A DNA stretch of 64,000 nucleotides from Chitinophagaceae bacterium (GCA_016787135.1 JAEUVK010000083.1:2633-66632), one strand, 5' to 3'; positions 17,156 to 33,756 are shown, counted from the stretch's first letter. Numbers and translations are program-made. Notes: generated by a model not told the origin, from the letters alone.

Positions 17156-19018
17156 ATGTTCCCAGAATATGATATAATAGTAGTAGGTGCGGGGCATGCC
17201 GGTTGCGAAGCTGCAGCCGCTGCAGCCAATATGGGCTCCAAGGTGTTGCTGGTGACCATGAATATGCAAACAATCGCTCAAATGAGCTGTAATCCAGCAA
17301 TGGGAGGAATTGCAAAAGGGCAAATAGTCCGGGAAATTGACGCCTTGGGCGGATATTCTGGAATTGTAACGGATTTGTCTATGATTCAATTTCGTATGCT
17401 AAACCGTTCAAAAGGCCCAGCAATGTGGAGCCCAAGAGCACAAAACGATAGGATGCAATTTGCAGCTAAATGGAGGGAATTACTTGAAAAGACACCAAAT
17501 GTTGATTTTTACCAGGATACAGTAAAGGGGCTTTTAATAAAAAATGGAGTAGCAAAAGGCGTAGTAACGGGCTTAGGACATGAAATAAGTTCAAAGGCGG
17601 TCGTTTTAACCAATGGCACATTCTTAAACGGTGTTATCCATATTGGAGAAAAAAATTTTGGAGGAGGCCGGGCTGCAGAAAAAGCCGTTACAGGAATTAC
17701 AGAACAATTAGTATCTCTTGGCTTTGAAAGTGACAGGTTAAAAACAGGAACTCCACCAAGAATAGATGGTCGAAGCTTGGATTACAGCAAAATGGAAGAA
17801 CAACCGGGAGATAAAGAAATTACAGGATTTTCGTACACAAATACGCCTAAACCAAAAGAGCAAAAAAGCTGTTGGATCACATATACCAGCCAGAAGGTTC
17901 ACAACATCTTAAAAACCGGGTTTGACAGAAGCCCAATGTTTGCGGGTAGAATTGATGGTATTGGGCCCAGGTACTGCCCAAGTATTGAGGACAAAATTAA
18001 CCGGTTTGCTGAAAGGGAACGCCATCAGCTATTCATTGAGCCGGAGGGTTGGAATACGGTTGAAATATATGTCAATGGCTTTTCCACTTCCCTTCCAGAA
18101 GAAGTTCAATACGAGGCACTTCGTAATATAATTGGGTTTGAAAATGTCAGGGTCTTCAGACCTGGTTATGCTATTGAATATGACTATTTTCCCCCGACTC
18201 AGCTAAAATATTCCCTTGAAACAAAACCTATTGAAAATCTATTCTTTGCAGGTCAGATAAATGGAACAACCGGTTATGAAGAAGCGGCTTGCCAAGGGCT
18301 AATGGCTGGAATCAATGCCCATCGGAAAATCAAGGGGTTAGATTCTGTAGTATTAAAGAGGAACGAAGCTTATATAGGAGTGCTTATTGATGACCTCATC
18401 AGTAAGGGAACGGAAGAGCCTTACAGAATGTTTACCTCAAGAGCAGAGTTCAGAACATTATTACGACAGGATAATGCTGATCTACGATTAACAGAATTAA
18501 GCTATAGGATAGGACTTGCTTCCGGCGAAAGAATGGGCAAAGTTCTCGAAAAGAAAACCAATGTTGAAAAGATAAAGACTATTCTGAATGAGTCATCGGT
18601 TGAGCCCTCAGAAATCAATGTTTATTTAGAAAAGATCAACTCCTCACAGATATCAGAAAAACAAAAGACCGGAAAACTATTACTAAGACCCGATATAGAA
18701 TTAAATGACCTTGCTGAAGCGCTGCCCGAATTAAAGAAGCAATTGGCTTCCTTTTCCAAAGAAACCATTGAACAAGCCTCGATACAGATAAAGTATGAGG
18801 TCTATATTGAAAAAGAAAAAGACTTAGCCCTTCGAATGAGTCAACTAGAAGATCTCCTTATCCCCGAAACTTTTGATTATAAAAAAATTCAGTCGCTCGG
18901 TAATGAAGCAAGAGAAAAGCTTACCAGGATAAAACCAGGAACTCTTGGTCAGGCCAGCCGTATTTCAGGCATTAATCCGAGTGATGTTCAAATACTAATG
19001 GTATATATAGGCAGGTAA
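17156..19018 (+). CDS. mnmG: tRNA uridine 5-carboxymethylaminomethyl modification enzyme MnmG (GidA)
   Basis: 620 aa. The FAD motif VVGAGHAGCEAA, GPRYCPSIEDK and the C-terminal GQASRISGINPSD are present. Confidence 0.97.
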   Translation: MFPEYDIIVVGAGHAGCEAAAAAANMGSKVLLVTMNMQTIAQMSCNPAMGGIAKGQIVREIDALGGYSGIVTDLSMIQFRMLNRSKGPAMWSPRAQNDRMQFAAKWRELLEKTPNVDFYQDTVKGLLIKNGVAKGVVTGLGHEISSKAVVLTNGTFLNGVIHIGEKNFGGGRAAEKAVTGITEQLVSLGFESDRLKTGTPPRIDGRSLDYSKMEEQPGDKEITGFSYTNTPKPKEQKSCWITYTSQKVHNILKTGFDRSPMFAGRIDGIGPRYCPSIEDKINRFAERERHQLFIEPEGWNTVEIYVNGFSTSLPEEVQYEALRNIIGFENVRVFRPGYAIEYDYFPPTQLKYSLETKPIENLFFAGQINGTTGYEEAACQGLMAGINAHRKIKGLDSVVLKRNEAYIGVLIDDLISKGTEEPYRMFTSRAEFRTLLRQDNADLRLTELSYRIGLASGERMGKVLEKKTNVEKIKTILNESSVEPSEINVYLEKINSSQISEKQKTGKLLLRPDIELNDLAEALPELKKQLASFSKETIEQASIQIKYEVYIEKEKDLALRMSQLEDLLIPETFDYKKIQSLGNEAREKLTRIKPGTLGQASRISGINPSDVQILMVYIGR

Positions 19019-19023
19019 AGCTT

Positions 19024-20463
19024 TCACTTTCCCCTCACCAGATACCGTTTCTGTTCACGCTGGCTTACCGAATTTCCAACAACACCACTTATGGTTCCAC
19101 GACAGTTTTCAGAACCACACCTGCATTCAAAAGGCTCCATATTCTCATCAAGGAATTGCGAATAATCAAATGTAAGCTCTTCGTTTTTCTTTATACTCCT
19201 TAGTGAAATAACATTTAATCCCTCAAGACCTGTATTAGCATCGCAGCTATGATTCTGTGGCGCCCATTCTGACGGGTCATCATCCCACAGAACAAATACC
19301 TCTTCACTTACCGCATAAGCATACCGGCGAAAATTCAATTTTTGTTCTTCGTTCCAGTTTTTCTCTACAAATCTCTTTGTTACTATACGATGTGCCCTTT
19401 CTTCGCCCCTGAATATCACTTCACCCTTCCTGATGGGCCTAGCCGCGTATATACCAAAACCAGATATAGAATTCCCTTTCATCAAATAAGGCTTCTTTTT
19501 CCGTTGATGTCTTGCAACTCCCTCCGCAATAATATGCTCAAGAAAACCCCTTTGGCCCGCCTCATCAAATTTCAAAACAAAATCGGCTGACCCTTCATAC
19601 CCATCCGTATAAAATACGGAGCAGGTAAAATTAATTTCCAGGAAGTAAATCTCTTTCTTGTCATTTACCCTGAAATCAAGCCTCGCATATCCTACGCCAT
19701 TAAATCCCGTAAAAATCTTTTCAGTGGCTTCTCTCAACTGCCTATCCAATAGCGGATCAGTGCATGGAAAATTACAATCAGGGTGGAGTTCGGAAGTCTT
19801 TAATGAATAGGTCTTAAAGGTCTTGCCTTCCGGAAAAACGTATTCCACAGGCTTGAAGACTCTGCAGGATTTTCCATCTTCATTAGCCGCTACCAAAACT
19901 GTGAACTCTCTTCCCTCGATGTATTCTTCCACCAGCAGAGGTCCATAGTCATTAAAAATTTCAACTACCTTTTTGAGCAAATCCTCCTTATTGTACAGAA
20001 CAGAGTTTTCATCAATACCCAGGCTGTCACCTGCTTTTGCAGGCTTGATGAACATCGGGTATGAGAGATACTGTTCTACCTTTTCGATATCTTTTGGCTG
20101 TTCAATAATAAAATACCGCGGAGTTTTCACCCCTTCGCAGTGCGCAACATATTTCATTAACTCCTTCGACGGATCATACAATTTTGCTGTGGGCCCCGTA
20201 TGTGGAATATCCAATAATTCAAACGTATAAATTACATCTATCGAAGGGACCTCCCACTCGAGATACCCTTCACATAGGTTTACAAATATGTCATAATTCC
20301 TTTTTTTAAGTTCCTTTAACTGGCGATAAGTGGTCAGCTTATTCAGAAACACATGGTCCACTTCTGCCTCAGGTAGCAAATGAGAAAGATTTCTGGCGGG
20401 ATCATAATTCTTATAATCAACCCCGGTAGTTGAGTAGTCGGGCTGAAGCACACATACCTTCAT
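19024..20463 (-). CDS. ATP-grasp (Ddl-like) ligase fused to a C-terminal SET-domain methyltransferase
   Basis: 479 aa. ATP-grasp motifs are FIKPAKAGDSLGI, LVEEYIEGREF and RLDFRV...YFLEINF. SET motifs are QNHSCDAN and ELTFDY, with a post-SET-like CRCGSENCRG. Confidence 0.8.
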   Translation of the reverse strand: MKVCVLQPDYSTTGVDYKNYDPARNLSHLLPEAEVDHVFLNKLTTYRQLKELKKRNYDIFVNLCEGYLEWEVPSIDVIYTFELLDIPHTGPTAKLYDPSKELMKYVAHCEGVKTPRYFIIEQPKDIEKVEQYLSYPMFIKPAKAGDSLGIDENSVLYNKEDLLKKVVEIFNDYGPLLVEEYIEGREFTVLVAANEDGKSCRVFKPVEYVFPEGKTFKTYSLKTSELHPDCNFPCTDPLLDRQLREATEKIFTGFNGVGYARLDFRVNDKKEIYFLEINFTCSVFYTDGYEGSADFVLKFDEAGQRGFLEHIIAEGVARHQRKKKPYLMKGNSISGFGIYAARPIRKGEVIFRGEERAHRIVTKRFVEKNWNEEQKLNFRRYAYAVSEEVFVLWDDDPSEWAPQNHSCDANTGLEGLNVISLRSIKKNEELTFDYSQFLDENMEPFECRCGSENCRGTISGVVGNSVSQREQKRYLVRGK

Positions 20464-20473
20464 GACAGTACTA

Positions 20474-21622
20474 TTAAATGATTAAACCCCTTCTTATAAA
20501 GGCGTCTTGTATTATTTCGCGGATCAAAAGAGTAAAGGATCTGTTTGCATACCTCAAAATAGCTCCAATCGATGTATAATCCTCGTCATCGCTTAATCCA
20601 CATTGAGCATTGACTTCCAGCATATACAACTTTCCGTTGGAAGCATCCATTCTTATGTCCAACCGCCCGTACCCGGTACCCCCGACTGCAACATAAGCAT
20701 CAATACTTATCTTCTCAAGCTGCTTCATCAAAGAAGCATCCGGTCGGTTATAATTATAAAAATTCTCATTCCCCGGCATCGGTTTCTCATCTTCATATAT
20801 CTCCCATAGCCGGTCAAATGACAGAAATTTTTCTTCGTCAGGCAATGAATGATGGAATATTCTTTCAACAGCAGGGTAAACTGTACATTTTTCAGGAACC
20901 GATGATGACCCTACTACAAGTGTCGTGAATTCGGGCCCGGTTATGAACTGCTCAACTATCAATCCATCGGCTAAAAGATTCCATCCCCGATAACCTTGCT
21001 TGATTTCCCTGATCCTACGAAGCAACTCCTTATCTGTATAAACTACATTTTTTACTGAAACGCCCATGCTTCCCCCTGAAACTGCTGGTTTAATAATTAA
21101 CGGCGCCCCGATCCTTTTGCAAAGTCCTTTTACAGAATCTTCGCTTCCATCAATAATTTCCCATTTTGCGTTTGGCACCCCCGCTTTATCAAAAGCCCTT
21201 TTCATCGGGATCTTTGATGTCGTGATAGTATAGTAATGAGCATCGGATCCTGTGTAGACAAGTTTATTCCTTTCCAATTCATGGATAACAGATACTCCTG
21301 GTGTACCGTTGATCTCATCTCCATCACAGAGGTTTAGTACCAGGGGTATCTTTCTCCCCGATCTCTTCTTAATAGAACCAACAACCTCCCTGAAGTTATG
21401 CATAGTAACAGGCTGCCATGTCCAGTCTGCACCAAGCTCTTCAAATACCTTTGTGTATTCCTCCAGGCTTTGATTGAAATCGTAGTAATATTGAAGATTA
21501 GGGTCAGTGGTCTCCAGATATGGATACAATACCCAGATTTTTAGCTTCCGGATGGGGTCAGCCGATACTTTGGCGCGGGAACTTTTTTTCTTAAGCTCTT
21601 TTTTCCTTGCTTGAGCGATCAT
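20474..21622 (-). CDS. ATP-grasp domain ligase (D-Ala-D-Ala ligase-like)
   Basis: 382 aa. Motifs are LNLCDGDEINGTPG, LIIKPAVSGGSMGV, IVEQFITGPEF and GRLDIRM...YMLEVNAQ. The N-terminal tail is Lys-rich. The start overlaps the upstream SET gene by 32 nt. Confidence 0.8.
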   Translation of the reverse strand: MIAQARKKELKKKSSRAKVSADPIRKLKIWVLYPYLETTDPNLQYYYDFNQSLEEYTKVFEELGADWTWQPVTMHNFREVVGSIKKRSGRKIPLVLNLCDGDEINGTPGVSVIHELERNKLVYTGSDAHYYTITTSKIPMKRAFDKAGVPNAKWEIIDGSEDSVKGLCKRIGAPLIIKPAVSGGSMGVSVKNVVYTDKELLRRIREIKQGYRGWNLLADGLIVEQFITGPEFTTLVVGSSSVPEKCTVYPAVERIFHHSLPDEEKFLSFDRLWEIYEDEKPMPGNENFYNYNRPDASLMKQLEKISIDAYVAVGGTGYGRLDIRMDASNGKLYMLEVNAQCGLSDDEDYTSIGAILRYANRSFTLLIREIIQDAFIRRGLII

Positions 21623-22100
21623 GCAGTTGCTGTTGAATGAAGCGGGTAAGTTTATATGTATCTAAAACCTCCCGGCTGATATGTGCTGCGCCTTGTATCT
21701 TTCCAAGACACCTGTCTGTTCCGCAAAAACAACTAAAAGGTTGGGCCATGTCCCACTCTGTGGAAGGATAAAAGAATGTCATTTCATCCCCTTCTTCGAT
21801 AGGCTTAAGCGCTACTACCTTCATAGCATAAGTATCAAAGAAAACATTCGGGTCGCAGCTATGGTTGATGTACTGAAGATGTTCCGGCTGCAGCATGATA
21901 TGTTTGTCGACATCTACCTGAACCGTAAGATAAGTTGGCTCAGACAATACCTGTCCTGCATAGAACTCTGCAATAACATCTCCCGGCTGATAGGAGCGCT
22001 GCGCAAAGAATGCTTTCTGATTATTTACTAAGTTTTGCCTGACTACGGCAAACTGATGATCGCTGATAATGCGATATTGGGGGTTAGTAAGTGTTATCAT
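21591..22100 (-). CDS. SET domain-containing methyltransferase
   Basis: 169 aa. Motifs are INHSCDPN and GDEMTFFY, with a Cys cluster CFCGTDRCLG. Confidence 0.8.
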   Translation of the reverse strand: MITLTNPQYRIISDHQFAVVRQNLVNNQKAFFAQRSYQPGDVIAEFYAGQVLSEPTYLTVQVDVDKHIMLQPEHLQYINHSCDPNVFFDTYAMKVVALKPIEEGDEMTFFYPSTEWDMAQPFSCFCGTDRCLGKIQGAAHISREVLDTYKLTRFIQQQLHDRSSKEKRA

Positions 22101-22187
22101 GATCGTTTCGTTATGAAAAGATATATATAAACTTTTATGTAAAAAATCTTATTTGAATAAATGTGAATAATTCATAGCAATAGCTTA

Positions 22188-22213
22188 ATAACATCATTGA
22201 TCAATGATGTTAT
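22188..22213. promoter_or_regulatory. Perfect 26-bp palindrome in a divergent intergenic region (candidate operator)
   Basis: ATAACATCATTGA|TCAATGATGTTAT. It lies 88 bp upstream of the SET operon start and about 70-85 bp upstream of the divergent gene. Confidence 0.5.
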
Positions 22214-22282
22214 GTTATTACCATACTACCAACCTGCACACTTCGGTCATGCATCATTTCATTGTAAATTTGCCGCTCGCTT

Positions 22283-23773
22283 ATGTTATTAATGCTAATG
22301 CCTGTTCGGATAAAAAAATATATAAAAGCTATAGCCTTATTGATCTGTTTCATTGCTCCAAGCAATATAATTACCGGCCAATGTACAACACCCATTGCTA
22401 TATTTCCATACAATGAAAGCTTTGAAACCGCTACTGGTGGCTGGTTTCAGGGCGGTATTGCTTCTGACTGGGCATGGGGCGCACCTACAAAACCCCTTAT
22501 TGCCAGCGCAGCCAATGGTAGTCGTTGCTGGGTCATTGGCGGTTTGACCGGTAGCTCATACAACAATTCACAAGCTTCCTGGCTGCAAAGTCCCTGCTTT
22601 GATTTTACTTCATTACAATACCCCTATATAACTTTTAGTGTCTTCTGGGAAATGGAACAGAGATTTGATGGCGCAAGCTTTCAATACTCAATAAATAATG
22701 GTTCTACCTGGTCGGATATAGGCTCATCCAATGAAGCCCCGTATTGTTTAAATGAGAATTGGTATAACTATTCACCCGTTACTTACCTGTCATCATTGTC
22801 AACGACCAGAAATGGGTGGTCCGGCAATATTCAGTCCACTTCAGGAAGCTGTCTCGGCGGTAATGGAAGCAATGGCTGGGTAACTGCAAAACATATTATG
22901 CCAATACTGGCAGGCCAATCTTCAGTGATATTCCGGTTTATATTTGGCTCAGGCACTACCTGCAGTAACTATGATGGGTTTGCAATTGATAATATTATCA
23001 TAGGAGAAGCGCCTTCTAACAATGCCGGCTTTACTTCTGCCTGTGTTAGCAGCACTACTGTTTCCTTTACCAATACATCCTCGTTTTGTCCGGGCTCTTT
23101 TACTTGGAACTTCGGGGACCCAGCATCGGGAACATCAAATACATCATCTGCAAAAGACCCCATTCACTCATTCTCCGGACCAGGCGTTTATACAATTACT
23201 CTGACAGCAGGCGGGCAGGGCAATGCTTCTTCTACTACGACAGGAGAGGTAATAATATTCGAAGCAGGTGCATCTGTTATATCACCGGCTGATTGCACCA
23301 GCGGAAACGGGGGGTCAGCTTTAGTGAGCGCTGTCGGTGGGCCGGGTCCTTATACCTATTTATGGAGCACTACTCCGCCTCAAACAACAAGTACTGCCAC
23401 TGGTCTTCCGTATGGCGATTATAAGATAATTGTTACTGCTGCCGGATCTTGTCCTGATACAGCCAGGGTTACCATCCCTCTGGATCTTTCCTGCATCGGC
23501 ATCTATTTCCCATCTGCTTTTACTCCAAACGGTGATGGGCGAAATGATAGCTTCGGCCCGTTAGGCAGTGTTTCCGTCTTAAGCAATTACTCGTTCTACA
23601 TATATAACCGGTGGGGAGAACGGGTTTTCTACAGCACAAACCCTTTTCAAAAATGGGATGGGGTATTCAGGGGGAAAGGGGCCGATAACAACAGTTTTGC
23701 CTGGTATGCAGAATATGACCTTCCCGGGCAGCTACGGGTCTTAAAAAAAGGAACTATAATGTTAATTAAATAA
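22283..23773 (+). CDS. Secreted protein with MAM/jelly-roll-like N-domain, PKD domain, SprB-like repeat and T9SS type B sorting domain
   Basis: 496 aa. The PKD core is WNFGDP...HSFSGPGVYTITL. The C-terminal FPSAFTPNGDGRNDSF...YIYNRWGERVF is the gliding-motility CTD. A TAAATTTG -7 box at 22265-22272 suggests the start may be the Met at 22298. Confidence 0.8.
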   Translation: MLLMLMPVRIKKYIKAIALLICFIAPSNIITGQCTTPIAIFPYNESFETATGGWFQGGIASDWAWGAPTKPLIASAANGSRCWVIGGLTGSSYNNSQASWLQSPCFDFTSLQYPYITFSVFWEMEQRFDGASFQYSINNGSTWSDIGSSNEAPYCLNENWYNYSPVTYLSSLSTTRNGWSGNIQSTSGSCLGGNGSNGWVTAKHIMPILAGQSSVIFRFIFGSGTTCSNYDGFAIDNIIIGEAPSNNAGFTSACVSSTTVSFTNTSSFCPGSFTWNFGDPASGTSNTSSAKDPIHSFSGPGVYTITLTAGGQGNASSTTTGEVIIFEAGASVISPADCTSGNGGSALVSAVGGPGPYTYLWSTTPPQTTSTATGLPYGDYKIIVTAAGSCPDTARVTIPLDLSCIGIYFPSAFTPNGDGRNDSFGPLGSVSVLSNYSFYIYNRWGERVFYSTNPFQKWDGVFRGKGADNNSFAWYAEYDLPGQLRVLKKGTIMLIK

Positions 23774-27378: not shown

Positions 27379-30300
27379 TCAATCGGACTCCATTTCTCTG
27401 CGTCTTGCAGAATAACTTGTTTCATTTTCTTTTCGCATAAAAACTAAAGGGTTGGGTGCCGTCCATGTAAATTCATATACACGATTAACAGAACCGCGAT
27501 CTGTGCTGTATAGTCGTATCAACCCATCATTGCGGCCCCTCCCGTAATGCAATCCATACATATAATCGCTTCCTCCTCCCATATTATAGGTATCCCATCC
27601 TGATCCATTCCACGAATATTCCAACACCTTTCCATTACCGTTATCAGTATATAACCTGTTAATTCCGTCATTACGGCCGGGAATCACATAGGCATGTACG
27701 TTCTGAATACCCGTATTTGGCAGGTTCACAAATGTCCAGGCTGATCCGTTCCAGGTGAACTCCCGCATGGTACCGTCATAGATAGCGGCATATACACGTG
27801 TAATACCATCATTCCTTCCTTCTCCAAGTCCTATACCACGGGAGTCGCCTGAATCGCCCATAGAATTGATGACCCATGAAGTTCCGTTCCAATACACCTC
27901 AAAATCTCCGGAGGAAATAGAAGAAATATATATATAGTTCTTACCATCATTGCGGCCTTTTCCTAATGCCACACCGTGTGCACCGGGTGTGCTGCCAATC
28001 AGCAGTTTTGTCCAACTGGTGCCATTCCAGGTAAATTCAAAAAGTTGTTGCGTACTGGCAGCATACAATCTTGTCACCCCATCATTGCGTCCGTCGCCCA
28101 TTGCCATGTGCATACCAAGATTATTATTCAGCCCCCCTACCGTCAGTTGATGCCAGCCAGTAGCGTCATTCCATATCTCGTATATATTATAATCATAACT
28201 GGCGGCATATAGCCGGTCTTTCCCGTCGCCTCTTCCATCTCCTATGTTACAGTCGTGTATTTCTGTTCCCGCAGGAGATCCACCTACATCAACCGGGCCT
28301 GTCCAGGCTGTTCCGCTCCATGAATATTCCAGCATACGCCCCGTTCCGATAGTGCCAACATATATCCGCTCCAGCCCATCCGGTTTCAGCGCTCCGACAC
28401 GTATCGTGTTATTCTGTGTATTGGTAGAGCCTATTGTGGAGATAGTCCAAACTGCTGGGGTAGAGAAGACGATCAGCGTAACAGGAATGGTTCTGATCAT
28501 TGAACCACTTATGCCCTGTACTGTGAGGTTATAGGTTCCTGCTGCAGCGGATGAGGTCACGTTCAGTGTAAGCGTTGATGTGGCAACAGGTATCGGCGAT
28601 GCCGGGTTAAATGATGCTGTTATTCCGGCTGGCAAACCAAGAACAGACAACGTAACAGGATTTACATAATCATTAGTTTCATTCACGTTGATGGTAAACG
28701 TTGTACTGTTCCCAATAGAAACATTTGAGATTGATGGAGCGGCAGTTAAATTAAAGTCAGCCGCGGCCGTAACATTAAGAGTTCCCTGCTGTGTATGTGT
28801 AATTCCATCAAATGAAGTAGCCGTAAGTGTTATCGGATACGTACCCAGTGGTGCTCCGGATGTATTTAAGATCAACTGTGTTTCTCCCTGATGTGACATT
28901 GGGTTGAACAGAAAATGGCTGGTAGTGCCTGAAGGAAGACCCGTAACCGCCAAATTAATCCCACCCGTCGTATACCCATTCAAATAGCTTACATATATTC
29001 TATAATCTATCGTTCCGGTAACCTCCACATTTCTTACTGGTGTTAATAGTGTAAATAAAAAGTCTGGGGCAACATTGACAGTTACGCCATTGGAAGTGGT
29101 CACATTGCCTGCAGCATCTCTTGCCCTGGCTGTTAAAACATGAGACCCGTTGATCGTTGTCTGAGTATTCCATGAAATAGTATAAGGCGGGGTGACATCT
29201 TCTGCATCGAGATTAACACCATCCAGCATAAATTGCACACCGGCAACGGCAAAATTATCTGCAGCATTGGCGGTAACATTCACAGTACCCGAAACATTGC
29301 CACCGGTCGGAGAAGTAATTGAAACGGTCGGGGAAATATTATCTATTCCCACCGGCGTATTCATGTCTGTTATTATCTCTGCCGGGGTAAGAAGCCTGTT
29401 ATAATACCTTACTTCATCTATTGTACCATTAAGATATTCACCATAGGGCTGGTTCGAGCCAATGCGGATATTGGTGGGGTTGATCGATGTTATTGTTCCC
29501 GTTGAACCAATGGCACTGCGATTAGTAACGTCTGCTCCATTCACATAGATCGTAAACCTGTTGGCCTGTGCCTGGCTGCCGTCATACGTAATTGTTACAT
29601 GACTCCATTGTCCGGCTGTTAAAACATTATTATTACTATGAAGCGCCAGCTTACTGGTTCCAGACGACCAATAAGCAGAGATACCATTTGTAACCGGGCC
29701 ACCGCCGCCATCAACGCTGCTTGTTGTGTGTGCATAGAAATAGAGGAAGTTGGAAGTGCTGATGGTTTGGCTCCAGATGGTGCTGAACTCATTAAAGTTA
29801 TTGTTCTTTACCCAGGCACTCCATGTATAACTTTGAGCCGGGTCCAGGGTAAAGTTGTTATGATCCGCTATGTTGATATAGCTGTTGGTGCCATTAAAAC
29901 TTAGTCCCTGTCCGTATTTACCTGTGGTCCAGCCCGGACTGTTCGTAAGGGTTCCCGTGTGATTATTTCCGGATATATCAGCTGCTGTTGTTCCCGTTCC
30001 TTCATTGAAATTGAACCCGGCAATAAGATTAGTGGTGTTGCTTACATTAACGATAACTGAAGTTGACGTGGTATTATTACCAGCAGCATCGCGGGCTCTG
30101 GCTGATAAATTGTAGGTCCCGTTGGCTACTGTTGCAGTATTCCACGAAAAAGAATAGGGTGAACTCAGGTCTTCCCCGCCAATTAATGATCCATTCAATA
30201 AAAACTGTACCCCCACCACTCCGATATTGTCGCTTGCAGTAGCTGTAACATTAATTGTACCCGTTACCGTTCCTCCTGTCGGCGATGTGATATTTACAGC

Positions 30301-33300
30301 CGGAGCTTCTATATCGTTGTTTACGGTATAGATTATACCAGCCGAAACGGTAACATTGCCGGCCGCATCACGGGCCCGGGCCGAAACAGTATGAGGGCCA
30401 TTCAACACTCCTGTTGTATTCCAGGAAAGACTATACGGGAAAGACAGATCCTCTGCGCCCAAATTATTTCCGTCCAGTAAGAACTGAACACCAACGATGC
30501 CAATATTATCATTAGCGCTGGCAACCAGGTTTACTGAGCCCGCAATTGTTCCGGCGGCTGGTTCAATTATACTTACAGTCGGATCTTCGCTATCCGGAAG
30601 GTTGTTAACAGTAACACTTATCGTTGATGATGTTGTTATATTGCCTGCCGCATCTCTTGCTTTCGCAGTTATTGTATAATCACCATTTGCAACAGACAAT
30701 GTGTTCCAGGTTAAAGAATAGGGCGCAGACAGGTCCTCTGCCCCTAGACTTACTCCGTTTACTAAAAACTGTACTCCAACTACACCGGTATTATCATTAG
30801 CATCGGCAGCGATATTTACGTTGCCCGCCACCTCGCCGGACGAGGGTGCGGTAATAGTAATTGTCGGAAACTCAGTATCCGGCGGGTTGTTAAGTGTATT
30901 AACTACTATTGATGATGAAGTAGTGGTATTGCCGGCAGCATCTCTTGCCCTTGCTGTCAATGTATAACTGCCATCTGTTACCGTTGTTGTATTCCATGAT
31001 ATCATATACGGAGCAGATACATCCTCCGCGCCGAGGTTAACACCATTTAGCAGGAACTGGACACCGCTTACTCCGGTATTATCTCCTGCATTTGCTGTAA
31101 TATCTACCGTTCCGACTACTGTTCCGGCCAGGGGTGCTGTTATAGATACTGTTGGGGCCTCTGTATCATTATTGACAGTAACAATTACTCCCGGAGAGAT
31201 TGCATTGTTGCCGGCTGCGTCTCTTGCTCGGGCTGTCAGCGTATGCGTCCCATTAGTAATTGTAGTTGTATTCCATAATACAGAATAAGGCGCCAATACA
31301 TCTTCTGCTCCAAGATTTACCCCATCCAAAAGGAACTGAACGCCTGCCACGCCAATATTATCGCTTGCAGTAGCCGCAATACTAACTGTTCCGTTTATGT
31401 TTCCTGCAGCAGGTGATGTAATACTCACCGTAGGATTGGTTACATCCGGTGCAACAGGAGTATTCATATCGGTTTGAATTTCTGCCTGGCTTAATGCCCT
31501 GTTATAGATTCTCACTTCGTCAATCAGGCCGGCAAAATATTGACCGGTAAGAGCTGTGGTACCTCCAATTCGCAATGGATTTGTCGTCACTGTAACGTTC
31601 CCTGTTGTGGCGGTTGACGATACCTGTATTCCATTTACATACAACCTGAGCGTAGAGCCGTCATAGGTGCTGGCAATATGCGTCCATGTGTTAAGCGCAA
31701 GTTTTGTGGTTCCTGTTACGCTGACATTGCTGCTGCCGATACGCAATCGGCTGCTTGGTCGCTGGTTGTTGACATTGCTGGAATTATTATTGGCCGCAAG
31801 GGTGTAAGTAAAATTGCTGGTGGTCCTGTCTTTACAAATGACAGTCTTAAATCCCGTCAGGTTTGACGGATTGACCCATGCTTCCATTGTCATTCCGTTC
31901 GTCAGGTCAAGCGAGTTGGCATCATTGACATTTATATAATCATTTGTCCCGTCGAATACTATGGCCGATCCATATTTTCCCGAAGCAGACCACGCCGGTC
32001 CGTTCGTCAATGTTCCGGTATTATTATTACCGGAATTATCATTAGCGGTTATTCCGGTATTCTCATTAAACCCATATGCCGCAACAAGATTAGTATTGGA
32101 TACCGTTACATTTACGGCTGCAGATACAGTTGTATTCCCGGCCGCATCCCTTGCCCTGGCGGTTAACACATGATTGCCGTTAGTTGTTCCGGTCGTTATC
32201 CATGATGTTGAATAGGGCGTTGTCATGTCTTCAACACCAAGATTCACTCCGTCAAGCAAAAATTGTACTCCAATTACCCCGGTATTATCCGAGGCATTTG
32301 CATTTATATTAATAGTACCGGATACGCTTCCGCCGGTCGGAGTGGTAATGTTTACCAATGGTGATTCATTATCCGGCGGATTGTTTTGAACGGTAATATT
32401 TATTGCAGCAGATACAGTCGAATTACCCGCAGCATCGCGGGCCCTTGCCGTAAGGACGTGATTACCATCTGTGATCGTTGCAGTGTTCCATGATGTAATA
32501 TATGGCGCCGATAGGTCCTCTGTTCCAAGATTAGCACCGTCCAATAAAAACTGTACTCCTGCTATACTAATGTTATCTCCTGCATTTGCACTTACATTTA
32601 TTGTTCCTGAAACAATCCCTCCGGATGGCTCTGTGATACTGACTGTTGGAGCCTGCGTATCATTGTTGACGGTAATACTTACCGGGGCAGAGGTGGTCGT
32701 GTTACCCGCAGCATCTCTGGCGATCGCTGTCAGGTTATGTGCGCCATTTGACGCTGTTAAAGTGTTCCATGATATTGAATAGGGCGAAGAGGCGTCTTCC
32801 GCTCCAAGATTTACCCCATCTAATTGAAACTGAACTCCCGCAACTCCGATGTTATCCCCAGCATTTGCATTTACACTGATAGTGCCCGACACATTTCCTG
32901 CAGCAGGTGAAGAAATATTTACCGTTGGCGCTTCATTGTCGGGCGTATTACCAATGTTCATGTCGCTTTGAATTTCCGCAACCGACAGCAGTCTCCTGTA
33001 ATATCTTACTTCATCTATGGAGCCATTCAGGTATTCACCATATGGCTGGTTGGAAGCAATGCGTATGTTAGTAGGATCTATTGCAGTAATTGTACCGGAA
33101 GAAACAACGTCGGTTCTGTTTGTCACATCTGTGCCGTTCACATAGATGGTAAACCGGCTGGCTTGTGCCTGCGCTGCATCATAGGTCACCGTTACATAAC
33201 TCCAGTTCCCAGTGGTTAATACATTATTGTTGCTGTGAAGTACCAGCTTATTGCTGCCACTGTACCAGTAAACCGAAACCCCGTTGGTAACGGGCCCTGC

Positions 33301-33756
33301 TTCTGCATCACTTGTTGTGTGGGCATAGAAATAAAAGAAGTTTGAAGCATTAAGCGTCTGACTAAAAACCGTACCCCATTGATTGAAGTTGTTGTTTCTA
33401 ACCCATGCGCTCCAGCTATAACTTACCGTAGGTGTAAGTGTAAAGTTCGCATGATCGGCAATGTTCACGTAGTCGTTGGTTCCGTCAAAGTTGATCGCCT
33501 GCCCATATTTACCGGCGCCCCATGTTGGGCCATTAAGGAGTGTGCCGTTATGCGCATTACCTGAGGCGTCGGCAGTTGTCGTCCCCGTTCCTTCATTGAA
33601 CCGCAACTCAGCCACTACACCGGGCGCAGGAAATCCTGTCTCGTTCACTCCATGAAAACTCAGGGAAAAAAACGAAAGAACAACAAAGATTTTTACAAAA
33701 TGCTTAAACGCTCTGGTTTGCTCCGGGCTGGTTCCGGCAATGGTTTTTGATAGCAT
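27379..33756 (-). CDS. Giant secreted surface protein: 3 LamG-like modules, 9 Big_7-like Ig repeats, 2 further Ig-like domains, C-terminal 7-bladed propeller
   Basis: 2125 aa with a hydrophobic N-terminal signal. LamG-like modules are marked by NFDGTNDYVNI...IDEVRYY. The Ig units of about 96 aa are marked by GVQFLLDGVNLGAED..PYS.SWNT...G.H.LTARARDAAGN. The propeller repeats carry G.GRNDG..RLY...EF.WNG..W. Confidence 0.85.
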   Translation of the reverse strand: MLSKTIAGTSPEQTRAFKHFVKIFVVLSFFSLSFHGVNETGFPAPGVVAELRFNEGTGTTTADASGNAHNGTLLNGPTWGAGKYGQAINFDGTNDYVNIADHANFTLTPTVSYSWSAWVRNNNFNQWGTVFSQTLNASNFFYFYAHTTSDAEAGPVTNGVSVYWYSGSNKLVLHSNNNVLTTGNWSYVTVTYDAAQAQASRFTIYVNGTDVTNRTDVVSSGTITAIDPTNIRIASNQPYGEYLNGSIDEVRYYRRLLSVAEIQSDMNIGNTPDNEAPTVNISSPAAGNVSGTISVNANAGDNIGVAGVQFQLDGVNLGAEDASSPYSISWNTLTASNGAHNLTAIARDAAGNTTTSAPVSITVNNDTQAPTVSITEPSGGIVSGTINVSANAGDNISIAGVQFLLDGANLGTEDLSAPYITSWNTATITDGNHVLTARARDAAGNSTVSAAINITVQNNPPDNESPLVNITTPTGGSVSGTININANASDNTGVIGVQFLLDGVNLGVEDMTTPYSTSWITTGTTNGNHVLTARARDAAGNTTVSAAVNVTVSNTNLVAAYGFNENTGITANDNSGNNNTGTLTNGPAWSASGKYGSAIVFDGTNDYINVNDANSLDLTNGMTMEAWVNPSNLTGFKTVICKDRTTSNFTYTLAANNNSSNVNNQRPSSRLRIGSSNVSVTGTTKLALNTWTHIASTYDGSTLRLYVNGIQVSSTATTGNVTVTTNPLRIGGTTALTGQYFAGLIDEVRIYNRALSQAEIQTDMNTPVAPDVTNPTVSITSPAAGNINGTVSIAATASDNIGVAGVQFLLDGVNLGAEDVLAPYSVLWNTTTITNGTHTLTARARDAAGNNAISPGVIVTVNNDTEAPTVSITAPLAGTVVGTVDITANAGDNTGVSGVQFLLNGVNLGAEDVSAPYMISWNTTTVTDGSYTLTARARDAAGNTTTSSSIVVNTLNNPPDTEFPTITITAPSSGEVAGNVNIAADANDNTGVVGVQFLVNGVSLGAEDLSAPYSLTWNTLSVANGDYTITAKARDAAGNITTSSTISVTVNNLPDSEDPTVSIIEPAAGTIAGSVNLVASANDNIGIVGVQFLLDGNNLGAEDLSFPYSLSWNTTGVLNGPHTVSARARDAAGNVTVSAGIIYTVNNDIEAPAVNITSPTGGTVTGTINVTATASDNIGVVGVQFLLNGSLIGGEDLSSPYSFSWNTATVANGTYNLSARARDAAGNNTTSTSVIVNVSNTTNLIAGFNFNEGTGTTAADISGNNHTGTLTNSPGWTTGKYGQGLSFNGTNSYINIADHNNFTLDPAQSYTWSAWVKNNNFNEFSTIWSQTISTSNFLYFYAHTTSSVDGGGGPVTNGISAYWSSGTSKLALHSNNNVLTAGQWSHVTITYDGSQAQANRFTIYVNGADVTNRSAIGSTGTITSINPTNIRIGSNQPYGEYLNGTIDEVRYYNRLLTPAEIITDMNTPVGIDNISPTVSITSPTGGNVSGTVNVTANAADNFAVAGVQFMLDGVNLDAEDVTPPYTISWNTQTTINGSHVLTARARDAAGNVTTSNGVTVNVAPDFLFTLLTPVRNVEVTGTIDYRIYVSYLNGYTTGGINLAVTGLPSGTTSHFLFNPMSHQGETQLILNTSGAPLGTYPITLTATSFDGITHTQQGTLNVTAAADFNLTAAPSISNVSIGNSTTFTINVNETNDYVNPVTLSVLGLPAGITASFNPASPIPVATSTLTLNVTSSAAAGTYNLTVQGISGSMIRTIPVTLIVFSTPAVWTISTIGSTNTQNNTIRVGALKPDGLERIYVGTIGTGRMLEYSWSGTAWTGPVDVGGSPAGTEIHDCNIGDGRGDGKDRLYAASYDYNIYEIWNDATGWHQLTVGGLNNNLGMHMAMGDGRNDGVTRLYAASTQQLFEFTWNGTSWTKLLIGSTPGAHGVALGKGRNDGKNYIYISSISSGDFEVYWNGTSWVINSMGDSGDSRGIGLGEGRNDGITRVYAAIYDGTMREFTWNGSAWTFVNLPNTGIQNVHAYVIPGRNDGINRLYTDNGNGKVLEYSWNGSGWDTYNMGGGSDYMYGLHYGRGRNDGLIRLYSTDRGSVNRVYEFTWTAPNPLVFMRKENETSYSARRREMESD
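29065..32945 (-). repeat. Diverged intragenic tandem repeats (about 288-bp Ig-unit period, interrupted by LamG modules)
   Basis: Recurrent DNA cores are visible on the plus strand, for example GCNGCATCNCNNGCCC (the reverse complement of the ARDAAGN codons) at about 29111, 30071, 30361, 30641, 30931, 31211, 32141, 32431 and 32711. Confidence 0.8.

What the first reader, a model, noticed from the sequence alone, without database searches (positions are those of the whole stretch)
19024..22100. Three-gene operon pairing two SET-domain methyltransferases with two Ddl-like ATP-grasp ligases
Three minus-strand genes are packed with a 32-nt overlap and a 10-nt gap: 22100->21591 (SET, 169 aa), 21622->20474 (ATP-grasp, 382 aa) and 20463->19024 (N-terminal ATP-grasp with C-terminal SET, 479 aa). 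They are almost certainly co-transcribed and translationally coupled.

Both SET modules keep catalytic signatures: INHSCDPN / EMTFFY / CFCGTDRCLG, and QNHSCDAN / ELTFDY / CRCGSENCRG. Both ATP-grasp modules keep nucleotide and Mg signatures: IIKPAVSGGSMGV, EQFITGPEF, RLDIRM..YMLEVN, and FIKPAKAGDSLGI, EEYIEGREF, RLDFRV..YFLEIN.

SET enzymes methylate Lys side chains, or His in the case of SETD3. Ddl, RimK and carnosine-synthase-type ATP-grasp enzymes form amide bonds to amino acids or to protein tails. Here each activity is encoded twice in one operon of a free-living Bacteroidota genome, with no recognisable substrate, precursor-peptide, transporter or regulator gene nearby.

This suggests a dedicated ligate-and-methylate pathway. 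One possibility is a methylated di- or oligopeptide metabolite, analogous to carnosine->anserine. Another is tail addition plus methylation of a cellular protein, analogous to RimK on S6. I do not know of an experimentally characterised system with this composition.
Basis: partly seen in the sequence, partly recalled or inferred. Interest (0 to 1): 0.8.

Follow-up and report, generated by a model that had tools for sequence, protein, structure and literature searches.

The report
Conserved ATP-grasp ligase / SET methyltransferase operon
Three tightly packed genes encode two amide-bond-forming ligases and two SET methyltransferases that stay linked, or are fused into one protein, across at least seven bacterial phyla and some protists; this points to an uncharacterised pathway that most likely joins and methylates free amino acids rather than proteins.

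Summary
The three minus-strand ORFs, the 32-nt overlap, the 10-nt gap and every quoted motif are present, and Pfam supports both SET domains and both Ddl-like ATP-grasp domains.

The linkage is real:
- Of 46 genomic loci carrying the ATP-grasp–SET fusion (seven phyla), 37 have gene B next to it and 26 have the gene-A-type SET.
- The modules also occur fused as B–C, C–A, A–C and, in one protein, all four module types.
- Eukaryotic members exist (Vermamoeba, Mesostigma).

New points:
1. Gene A is not a generic lysine methyltransferase. By sequence profile and by predicted fold its closest solved relative is BurB, a SET enzyme that methylates free L-methionine.
2. Both ligases keep most of the ATP/Mg residues but lack Ddl's D-Ala-binding motifs. 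All 37 gene-B orthologues also replace the Lys215-equivalent.
3. The more distant SET-less relatives recovered here sit in operons with lysine 2,3-aminomutase and a GNAT.
4. ABC exporter-type genes, a FemAB-like ligase and a β-aspartyl-peptidase-like gene recur next to the module elsewhere.

Best reading (about 0.5): a ribosome-independent pathway that makes a methylated amino-acid or dipeptide metabolite. The main rival is protein modification. I found no published characterisation.

The parts
21591..22100 (-). Gene A: stand-alone 169-aa SET-domain methyltransferase of the BurB-like subtype. It carries the motifs TVQ, INHSCDPN, EMTFFYPSTEW and CFCGTDRC.
   Evidence: ORF. Pfam SET 2.5e-10. The best solved relative is BurB by phmmer (7e-10), by a profile of 13 A-type SETs (3.7e-25 against 1.1e-14 for the best histone KMT) and by Foldseek on an AF2 model (pLDDT 88; BurB E 2.6e-10, TM 0.64-0.68; best KMT 6.5e-7). 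An A-type SET lies within 8 kb of the fusion gene in 26 of 46 loci.
20474..21622 (-). Gene B: 382-aa Ddl-like ATP-grasp protein. It has the family motif NLCDG and an unusual conserved FLSFDRLW in place of the Lys215-Tyr216 element of Ddl.
   Evidence: ORF. Pfam Dala_Dala_lig_C 1.3e-14. All Ddl NCBIfam models score far below cut-off (88 against 243 bits). K144, S151, E180, R255, D257, E270 and N272 equivalents are kept. The K215 equivalent is replaced in all 37 orthologues. B lies next to C in 37 of 46 loci and is fused to C in P0391-P0394 and P0397.
19504..20463 (-). Gene C, N-terminal module (aa 1-320): Ddl-like ATP-grasp ligase.
   Evidence: Pfam Dala_Dala_lig_C 1e-20. AF2 model pLDDT 90, pTM 0.85, with Ddl structures as top Foldseek hits (E 9e-20, TMt up to 0.79). 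Catalytic K140, E179/E180, K222, R261, D263, E276 and N278 are conserved (K140, E179, D263 and N278 invariant in A1; E276 shown invariant in A3/A7), while Ddl's E15 and H63 motifs are absent.
19024..19503 (-). Gene C, C-terminal module (aa 321-479, plus stop codon): canonical SET domain with a post-SET CxCx4C Zn motif. It carries QNHSCDAN and ELTFDY, with Phe at the F/Y-switch position.
   Evidence: Pfam SET 7.5e-11. A profile of C-type SETs best matches KMT2A/MLL1 over its full length (5e-16) and BurB only over its C-terminal half. H405, C447, C449 and C454 are invariant in 22 diverse family members, and none of them has Tyr at the switch position.
21591..21622 (-). 32-nt overlap between the end of A and the start of B.
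   Evidence: The same overlap is present in L001, L002 and Terrimonas alba L090.
22101..22282 (.). Upstream intergenic region shared with a divergently transcribed gene. It holds the presumed operon promoter and leader. The 95 nt next to the ATG are nearly invariant in two related genomes. A perfect 22-bp palindrome, AACATCATTGATCAATGATGTT, lies at 22190-22211.
   Evidence: There is no Rfam match. A 20-codon ORF at 22135..22197 is not conserved in L001 or L002, so it is not a precursor peptide.

Best explanation
The operon encodes a self-contained, ribosome-independent 'ligate-and-methylate' pathway that acts on free amino acids or a very short peptide.

Shown:
- Both ATP-grasp modules belong to a Ddl-derived clade. 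They keep most of the ATP/Mg and acyl-phosphate residues but have lost Ddl's D-Ala-binding N-terminal motifs.
- Gene C carries a canonical SET domain fused to its ligase.
- Gene A is a BurB-type SET, the type known to hold a free amino acid in a closed pocket.
- All four modules are linked or fused in many lineages.

Inferred:
- Ligase C, helped or extended by B, activates an amino-acid carboxylate as an acyl-phosphate and couples it to the amine of a second amino acid.
- The fused SET then methylates a nucleophile on that substrate or product. This is most plausibly the terminal amine of a lysine-like side chain, methylated repeatedly, because no family member has Tyr at the F/Y-switch position.
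- The BurB-like SET A methylates a second site, either an amine or a thioether.
- The product would be a small, permanently charged ('onium') methylated amino-acid conjugate, possibly a compatible-solute-like or exported metabolite.
For: 1. Functional linkage.
- The A-B-C, B-C, A-C or C-A arrangement is seen in 46 loci from Bacteroidota, Gemmatimonadota, Cyanobacteriota, Acidobacteriota, Chloroflexota, Chlorobiota and Actinomycetota.
- Fusions occur as B-C, C-A, A-C, B-C(AG) and C-A-AG, the last with all four module types in one protein.

2. Small-molecule signature of the enzymes.
- The ATP-grasps are Ddl-like by HMM and by fold, not RimK-like (24.6 bits against a cut-off of 143).
- Gene A's nearest solved relative by profile and by fold is BurB. 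BurB methylates free L-Met, which it holds by main-chain contacts in a pocket sealed by SAM (PMC12542666).
- Gene A keeps the BurB Tyr124 equivalent and a YxSTE-x6-FxCxCG loop of the same length.

3. Context in relatives.
- An ABC_membrane_3 gene sits directly after C in 13 Bacteroidota loci.
- Chlorobium ferrooxidans has a full ABC exporter plus a third SET directly after C.
- Locus L081 has a convergent ABC exporter.
- Brasilonema has a FemAB-like ligase between A and B.
- Emticicia has an amino-acid permease directly upstream.
- Locus L086 has a β-aspartyl-peptidase-like gene 3 nt after C.

4. More distant SET-less relatives that share the FN(L/I)CEG motif.
- 12 of 26 loci (L055-L080) place the ligase(s) in an operon with a KamA-family aminomutase, and 9 also with a GNAT.
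- The aminomutase keeps both Asp residues that bind lysine's ε-ammonium.
- Peptidases S58, M24 or S66 are nearby.
- In other words, these ligases are tied to free (β-)lysine chemistry, and an amine-modifying enzyme occupies the position taken here by SET.

5. No candidate protein substrate or precursor peptide is conserved next to the module.
Against: - No substrate is identified, and nothing here is biochemical.
- The C-type SET looks like a canonical MLL-type protein-lysine methyltransferase with a post-SET Zn site.
- The KamA-linked ligases form a separate clade from the B/C family. They are about as similar to true Ddl as to C, so transferring 'lysine' to this system is a lead and not a result.
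- The closer SET-less relatives (L046-L053) have uninformative contexts.
- The neighbours listed above differ between lineages, and each non-Bacteroidota case is a single locus.
- The window itself has no transporter, peptidase or aminomutase near the operon, and no KamA or GNAT relative anywhere in its 64 kb.
- B's missing Lys215-equivalent leaves open whether B is a normal ligase.
Confidence: 0.5

Rival explanations
1. Protein-modifying system. The ATP-grasp enzymes add amino acids to a side chain or C-terminus of a housekeeping protein, as RimK does on S6 or TTL on tubulin. The SET domains methylate lysines of the same protein.
For: - The C-type SET profile best matches histone KMTs (KMT2A 5e-16, full length) and has the post-SET Zn motif.
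- A fused ligase and methyltransferase would naturally act on one macromolecular target.
- The operon has no dedicated substrate-supply genes in the window.
- Eukaryotic TTLL12 also combines SET-like and ATP-grasp (TTL) domains (PMC3520985).
- The system is chromosomal and syntenic with housekeeping genes (mnmG, ybeY, nadD).
Against: - The ligases are Ddl-type, not RimK- or TTL-type.
- Gene A is BurB-like, the free-amino-acid type.
- No candidate target gene is conserved beside the module in any lineage.
- The recurring neighbours are exporters, a permease and peptidases, not ribosomal or translation genes.
- The related SET-less ligases are coupled to a free-lysine aminomutase.
Confidence: 0.25
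2. Sulfonium branch of the small-molecule idea. Gene A is a true BurB-type methionine S-methyltransferase that makes S-methylmethionine, and the ligases conjugate it (or Met) to another amino acid. The product would be a sulfonium dipeptide or a DMSP-related osmolyte.
For: - BurB is the closest solved relative of A by sequence profile (91.7 bits, E 3.7e-25) and by fold.
- The Tyr124 equivalent and the STE loop that contacts Met are kept.
Against: - A and BurB share only 30% identity over 98 residues.
- BurB binds Met through main-chain atoms, so conserved side chains say little about specificity.
- A keeps the NHSC Asn that BurB lacks.
- A is dispensable in many lineages that keep C, or B plus C, so it cannot define the core chemistry.
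- No SMM decarboxylase or DMSP-pathway gene is linked.
Confidence: 0.12
3. Cell-envelope role. The Ddl-like ligases make an alternative D-aminoacyl-D-X or stem-peptide-like unit for peptidoglycan or another surface polymer, and methylation is a decoration.
For: - The ligases have the Ddl fold.
- A FemAB_like gene lies inside the Brasilonema cluster.
- An LD-carboxypeptidase S66 lies beside a related ligase.
- LicD, CDP-alcohol phosphatidyltransferase and a nucleotidyltransferase/CobD-like fusion lie next to the C-A fusion in L082.
Against: - Ddl's D-Ala1-binding Glu15 motif and His63 are lost, and all Ddl HMMs score far below cut-off.
- No mur, ddl, racemase or glycosyltransferase gene is consistently linked.
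- Each supporting neighbour is a single-lineage observation.
Confidence: 0.06

Closest known systems
BurB (Burkholderia thailandensis SET-domain L-methionine S-methyltransferase; PDB 9L4T/9L4V)
   Same: - Gene A and BurB are both small single-domain SET proteins (169 and 180 aa).
- BurB is the top hit for gene A by profile (E 3.7e-25) and by fold (TM 0.64-0.68).
- They share TxQ, HSCxPNV, the DY/FY Tyr, a YxSTE-x6-FxCxCG loop and the post-SET motif.
- This sets a precedent for a SET enzyme acting on a free amino acid.
   Different: - Identity is 30%.
- BurB sits in a PKS/NRPS (malleicyprol/DMSP) cluster and is not linked to ATP-grasp ligases.
- A's acceptor atom is unknown.
- A has NHSC where BurB has LHSC.
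D-alanine–D-alanine ligase (Ddl/VanA family)
   Same: - B and C have the three-domain ATP-grasp fold, with Ddl as the best structural match.
- K144, S151, E180, R255, D257, E270 and N272 are conserved.
- The expected chemistry is the same: an acyl-phosphate intermediate followed by amide-bond formation.
   Different: - The scores are 75-88 bits against cut-offs of 243-246.
- The GGxSxE(15) motif is absent and the H63 motif is replaced by NLC(E/D)G.
- Tyr216 is not kept, and gene B also lacks Lys215.
- There is no cell-wall gene context.
- One copy is fused to a SET domain.
AblA/AblB-type β-lysine pathway (lysine 2,3-aminomutase plus acetyltransferase, product Nε-acetyl-β-lysine)
   Same: - More distant SET-less relatives of B and C lie in operons with a KamA-family lysine aminomutase and a small GNAT.
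- That gives an amine-modifying enzyme next to the ligases, as SET is here.
   Different: - The window has no aminomutase or GNAT.
- The GNAT is not the AblB family.
- The known Abl pathway has no ATP-grasp step.
- Those ligases form a separate clade from B and C.
TTLL12 (eukaryotic SET-like plus tubulin-tyrosine-ligase-like protein)
   Same: It is the only described protein type that combines a SET-like domain and an ATP-grasp domain in one chain (PMC3520985).
   Different: - The domain order is reversed.
- Its ATP-grasp belongs to the TTL clade, not the Ddl clade.
- By its abstract it shows neither histone methylation nor tubulin ligation activity.
- No homology between TTLL12 and genes A-C was shown here.
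ATP-grasp dipeptide and metabolite ligases with tailoring enzymes (for example BacD/YwfE, MysC/MysD, carnosine synthase followed by carnosine N-methyltransferase)
   Same: The logic is the same: one or two ATP-grasp ligases build a small amide-linked metabolite, which is then tailored, in some cases by SAM-dependent methylation (own knowledge).
   Different: - In those systems the methyltransferases are class I Rossmann enzymes, not SET domains.
- None is fused to its ligase.
- No sequence-level family membership was shown here.

Membership tests
SET-domain methyltransferases (Pfam PF00856) | Profile match above the curated threshold | tested here: met
   A scores 41.1 bits and the C-terminal part of C scores 42.8 bits, against a cut-off of 22.4.
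SET-domain methyltransferases (Pfam PF00856) | NHSC motif, conserved Tyr of the ELxF/YDY motif, and post-SET CxCx4C Zn ligands | tested here: met
   A has INHSC, TFFY and CFCGTDRC. C has QNHSC, TFDY and CRCGSENC. These are invariant or nearly so in both families.
SET-domain methyltransferases (Pfam PF00856) | SAM-dependent methyl transfer | not testable with these tools
   This needs an enzyme assay.
BurB-like SET (free amino-acid methyltransferase) | Closer to BurB than to protein-lysine SETs in both sequence and fold | tested here: met
   This holds for gene A only. Profile: 91.7 bits against 57.6 for the next hit. Foldseek: 2.6e-10 against 6.5e-7. The SET domain of gene C does not meet it.
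BurB-like SET (free amino-acid methyltransferase) | Methylates free L-methionine to S-methylmethionine | not testable with these tools
   BurB binds its substrate through main-chain atoms, so sequence cannot decide this.
BurB-like SET (free amino-acid methyltransferase) | Sits in a bur-type PKS/NRPS cluster | tested here: not met
   No PKS or NRPS gene lies next to the module in the window or in the loci examined.
D-Ala–D-Ala ligase (EC 6.3.2.4) | Reaches the curated Ddl family score | tested here: not met
   The best scores are 88.5 bits (B) and 86.8 bits (C), against cut-offs of 243-246.
D-Ala–D-Ala ligase (EC 6.3.2.4) | ATP/Mg and transition-state residues K144, E180, K215, R255, D257, E270 and N272 | tested here: inconclusive
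   All are kept in C. B keeps all except K215, which is replaced by R-(L/Y)-W in all 37 orthologues.
D-Ala–D-Ala ligase (EC 6.3.2.4) | D-Ala-binding Glu15 (GGxSxE motif), His63 and Tyr216 | tested here: not met
   The motifs are absent or replaced (NLC(E/D)G; Thr or Trp at position 216) in B, in C and in their relatives.
RimK-type protein-tail ligases | RimK family profile match and linkage to a target protein gene | tested here: not met
   TIGR00768 scores 24.6 bits against a cut-off of 143. No rpsF or other conserved target gene lies beside the module.
TTLL12-type SET plus TTL proteins | N-terminal SET-like domain followed by a TTL-clade ATP-grasp domain | tested here: not met
   The order here is ATP-grasp then SET, and there is no TTL Pfam hit.
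Graspetide / RiPP ATP-grasp systems | A conserved precursor-peptide gene next to the ligase | tested here: not met
   The only small ORF upstream (20 codons, 22135..22197) is interrupted in L001 and L002.
Known anti-phage defence systems (PADLOC) | Match to any PADLOC model | tested here: not met
   A, B and C gave no hits.

The most novel reading that the evidence does not exclude
These genes define a widespread family (bacteria to amoebae and streptophyte algae) in which SET domains act as small-molecule methyltransferases, physically coupled to Ddl-derived ligases. The product would be a previously unknown class of methylated, permanently charged amino-acid or dipeptide metabolites, for example a trimethyl-lysyl or sulfonium conjugate. 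On this reading the SET fold's non-protein chemistry is common rather than a BurB oddity, and could represent the ancestral context from which protein-lysine methyltransferases arose.
Probability: 0.3. Interest if true: 0.8.

Novelty: new variant of a known kind. Interest (0 to 1): 0.66.

Why it matters
- SET domains are studied almost entirely as histone or protein lysine methyltransferases. Bacterial SETs are usually read as effectors or as transfers from eukaryotes.
- A conserved, often fused SET/ATP-grasp module in free-living bacteria, one part of which is BurB-like, would widen SET chemistry towards metabolites.
- It would also provide a tractable three-gene system for finding a new natural product or osmolyte. 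Cultured hosts are available: Terrimonas alba, T. pollutisoli, Chlorobium ferrooxidans DSM 13031 and Coleofasciculus sp. H7-2.
- It bears on the idea that eukaryotic protein-modifying enzymes came from bacterial peptide- and metabolite-modifying systems.
- Databases currently name these proteins 'protein-lysine N-methyltransferase' or 'D-alanine-D-alanine ligase'. Both names are probably wrong.

Tried and rejected
- **Literature.** Searches for SET plus ATP-grasp, SET plus D-alanine ligase, bacterial SET plus amidoligase, and aminomutase plus ATP-grasp plus β-lysine found nothing on this system. The Iyer 2009 amidoligase paper and the Aravind 2011 methylation review are not held, so a passing mention there cannot be excluded.
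- **Exact look-up.** Gene C's exact product is not on record in the assemblies collection.
- **First locus scan.** The alignment of 22 diverse sequences had no stretch conserved enough to scan with. I redid the scan with 7 sequences.
- **Orthology of the two ligases.** I tested whether the two SET-less, KamA-linked ligases are orthologues of B and C respectively. This is rejected. Scores are ambiguous. B and C group together with the L049/L055-type proteins (99.5% bootstrap), and the KamA-linked ligases form their own clade (85%).
- **Upstream RNA or peptide elements.** There is no riboswitch or known RNA upstream. The leader folds only modestly better than shuffles (z = -2.1). The 20-codon ORF in the leader is not conserved.
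- **Dipeptide epimerase.** The MR_MLE gene abutting C in the Bryobacteraceae locus is acid-sugar-dehydratase-like, so I dropped it as evidence.
- **Defence system.** There are no PADLOC hits.
- **Closer SET-less relatives.** The contexts of L046-L053 are uninformative, apart from one HDAC-like neighbour.


Full report
**1. The observation**

The ORF list reproduces the three minus-strand genes exactly:
- A: 21591..22100, 169 aa.
- B: 20474..21622, 382 aa.
- C: 19024..20463, 479 aa.

A and B overlap by 32 nt. The ATG at 21622 is the only ATG/GTG/TTG in frame before B's conserved first strand, so the overlap is real. B and C are 10 nt apart.

Pfam gives SET for A (2.5e-10), Dala_Dala_lig_C for B (1.3e-14), and Dala_Dala_lig_C (1e-20) plus SET (7.5e-11) for C. 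All are above the curated thresholds. The quoted motifs are all present.

Promoter-like and terminator-like matches inside the operon do not exceed shuffled expectation. Gene C ends 5 nt from the stop codon of the convergent mnmG. The closest relatives are Chitinophagaceae: C is 92% identical to its counterpart in a Chitinophagaceae MAG and 85% identical to those of Terrimonas alba and T. pollutisoli.

**2. The linkage is conserved and reinforced by fusions**

The C architecture (ATP-grasp then SET) is abundant. There are 3,473 clusters at 90% identity with E ≤ 1e-5 and 238 representatives at 50% identity with E ≤ 1e-30.

A scan of one genome per species returned 46 loci with the fusion. They come from Bacteroidota (Chitinophagaceae, Saprospiraceae, Emticicia, Chryseolinea), Gemmatimonadota, Cyanobacteriota (Brasilonema, Coleofasciculus), Acidobacteriota, Chloroflexota, Chlorobium ferrooxidans and Actinomycetota. 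I mapped the four window modules onto these loci:
- B lies next to C in 37 of them.
- An A-type SET lies within 8 kb in 26.
- The orders seen are A-B-C, B-C, A-C, C-A with B downstream, and A divergent from C.
- C alone occurs in several lineages, so the ATP-grasp–SET fusion is the core of the system.

Rosetta-stone fusions cover nearly every combination:
- B–C, 831-844 aa (P0391-P0394, P0397).
- C–A, 630-670 aa (many proteins).
- A–C.
- B–C(AG).
- One 953-aa protein with AG–SET–SET–AG.
- A Mesostigma viride protein with four A-type SETs before the C module.

Eukaryotic members also include Vermamoeba vermiformis. Terrimonas alba, a cultured strain, has the identical A-B-C layout, including the 32-nt overlap.

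**3. What the enzymes are**

*The ligases.*
- The AF2 model of C is confident (pLDDT 90, pTM 0.85), and its ATP-grasp half matches Ddl structures best.
- Alignment with E. coli DdlB shows that K144, S151, E180, E187, R255, D257, E270 and N272 are kept in B, in C and in their relatives.
- The D-Ala1-binding GGxSxE(15) motif is absent. The His63 motif is replaced by a family signature, NLC(E/D)G. Tyr216 is not kept.
- Every Ddl model in NCBIfam scores far below its cut-off, and RimK scores only 24.6 bits against 143. These are therefore Ddl-derived ligases with a different substrate.
- All 37 B orthologues replace the Lys215-equivalent with a conserved FLSF(D/E)R(L/Y)W motif. This is a feature of unknown consequence.

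*The SET domains.* They are of two kinds.
- C's SET is canonical. Its profile matches KMT2A over the full length (5e-16).
- A's SET is BurB-like. BurB is the top PDB hit for the single sequence (7e-10) and for a profile of 13 A-type SETs (3.7e-25, 91.7 bits, against 57.6 bits for the best histone KMT). It is also the top hit for the AF2 model by Foldseek (2.6e-10, TM 0.64-0.68, against 6.5e-7).
- BurB S-methylates free L-methionine. It holds the substrate by main-chain contacts in a pocket closed by SAM (PMC12542666).
- A keeps the Tyr124 equivalent and the same-length YxSTE…FxCxCG loop.
- Neither SET, and none of 22 C-family members, has Tyr at the F/Y-switch position two residues before the catalytic Tyr. 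By the established rule for lysine SETs (own knowledge), this permits multiple methylation.

**4. Context**

The window itself offers little. Upstream is a divergent secreted protein, downstream is mnmG, and there is no aminomutase or GNAT relative anywhere in the 64 kb.

Elsewhere, the neighbours of the module include:
- An ABC_membrane_3 gene immediately after C in 13 Bacteroidota loci.
- A complete ABC exporter and a third SET after C in Chlorobium ferrooxidans.
- A convergent ABC exporter in L081.
- A FemAB-like (aminoacyl-transferase-type) gene between A and B in Brasilonema.
- An amino-acid permease just upstream in Emticicia.
- A β-aspartyl-peptidase-like gene 3 nt after C in L086.
- M19 and C26 peptidases within a few genes in two other loci.

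No ribosomal, translation or other candidate target-protein gene recurs.

**5. A lead from SET-less relatives**

More distant relatives share the FN(L/I)CEG and EE(F/Y)IxGRE motifs. In 12 of 26 such loci, spanning several phyla, they are co-directional with a KamA-family radical-SAM aminomutase, and in 9 loci also with a small GNAT.
- The aminomutase scores best against AblA, the lysine 2,3-aminomutase (462-481 bits).
- It keeps both Asp residues (D293 and D330 of PDB 2A5H) that bind lysine's ε-ammonium.
- Peptidases S58 and M24 follow a fused ligase pair in a Bdellovibrionales locus, S66 follows a ligase in an Omnitrophota locus, and HDAC-like deacylases appear twice.

These ligases are thus tied to free (β-)lysine chemistry, with an amine-acylating enzyme where SET sits here.

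There is an important caveat. These ligases form their own clade, distinct from a well-supported B/C clade. They are roughly as similar to true Ddl as to C. This is a lead, not proof of a lysine substrate.

**6. Interpretation**

The best-supported reading (about 0.5) is a ribosome-independent pathway. C, with B, ligates amino acids. The two SETs then methylate the substrate or product, giving a small methylated, probably permanently charged metabolite that some lineages export.

The main rival (about 0.25) is modification of a cellular protein. This rests chiefly on the canonical look of C's SET. A sulfonium (Met) variant and a cell-envelope role are minor rivals.

Nothing in names, curated families or the searchable literature describes the system. 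The only described SET-plus-ATP-grasp protein, TTLL12, differs in domain order, in ATP-grasp clade and in apparent lack of activity.

**7. Verdict**

This is a real, conserved and uncharacterised enzyme module, and a new variant of the ATP-grasp 'ligase plus tailoring' theme. Its unusual feature is the use of SET domains, one of them BurB-like. The current database names ('protein-lysine N-methyltransferase', 'D-alanine-D-alanine ligase') are probably misleading. The substrate and product remain to be found by experiment.

Noticed in passing
window 22190-22211, within intergenic region 22101-22282: A perfect 22-bp palindrome, AACATCATTGATCAATGATGTT, lies about 90 nt upstream of gene A and is unique in the window. 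Only its right arm and the outer AATAAC/GTTATT repeat are kept in two related genomes, whereas the 95 nt next to the ATG are almost invariant. It may be an operator or promoter element for the operon or for the divergent gene.
   Followed up: partly
window 19018-19024: The stop codons of the convergent genes mnmG (+, ends 19018) and gene C (-, ends 19024) are only 5 nt apart, with no terminator-like structure between them. The two transcripts must therefore overlap or terminate inside each other's coding region.
   Followed up: no
window 20474-21622 (gene B), motif FLSFDRLW; also loci L001-L054: All 37 orthologues of gene B replace the Lys215-equivalent of Ddl-type ligases with a conserved Arg-(Leu/Tyr)-Trp. 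Every other ATP/Mg residue is kept. B may use Arg instead of Lys, or it may have a non-standard (regulatory or scaffolding) role.
   Followed up: partly
loci L056-L058, L061, L062, L066, L069, L070, L073 and L077-L080 (for example L058:4375-8261): There is a separate conserved operon of one or two Ddl-like ATP-grasp genes, a small GNAT and a lysine 2,3-aminomutase. It occurs in Bacteroidota, Chlorobiaceae, Aminicenantes, Deltaproteobacteria, Omnitrophota, Erysipelotrichaceae and Anaerolineales. I found no description of it, and it may make an acetylated β-lysine peptide.
   Followed up: partly
proteins P0494 (Vermamoeba vermiformis), P0257 (Mesostigma viride, 1415 aa) and P0369 (EukProt gene model, 6220 aa): The ATP-grasp–SET fusion also occurs in eukaryotes. 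The Mesostigma protein carries four tandem A-type (BurB-like) SET domains ahead of it. P0369 looks like an over-extended gene model with low-complexity sequence.
   Followed up: partly
locus L082:6202-9911: In one metagenomic contig the C–A fusion gene overlaps the end of a gene that fuses a nucleotidyltransferase to a CobD-like PLP enzyme. LicD, a CDP-alcohol phosphatidyltransferase, a class I methyltransferase and an ABC exporter are nearby. This hints at a link to phospho-amino-alcohol surface decoration in that lineage.
   Followed up: no
window 27379-33756 (-): A 2125-aa ORF has about a dozen near-identical ~90-aa repeats (…SGT[IV]xVxAxAxDNxGVxGVQFxLDGxNLGxED…ARARDAAGN…), two LamG-like blocks and a C-terminal repeat region. 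It is probably a large surface or secreted protein.
   Followed up: no
window 22283-23773 (+), compared with locus L090: In Terrimonas alba the PIF1/HRDC helicase gene directly precedes the operon. In the window a 496-aa secreted-type protein, with a C-terminal sorting-domain-like tail, is inserted between the two and is transcribed divergently from gene A.
   Followed up: no
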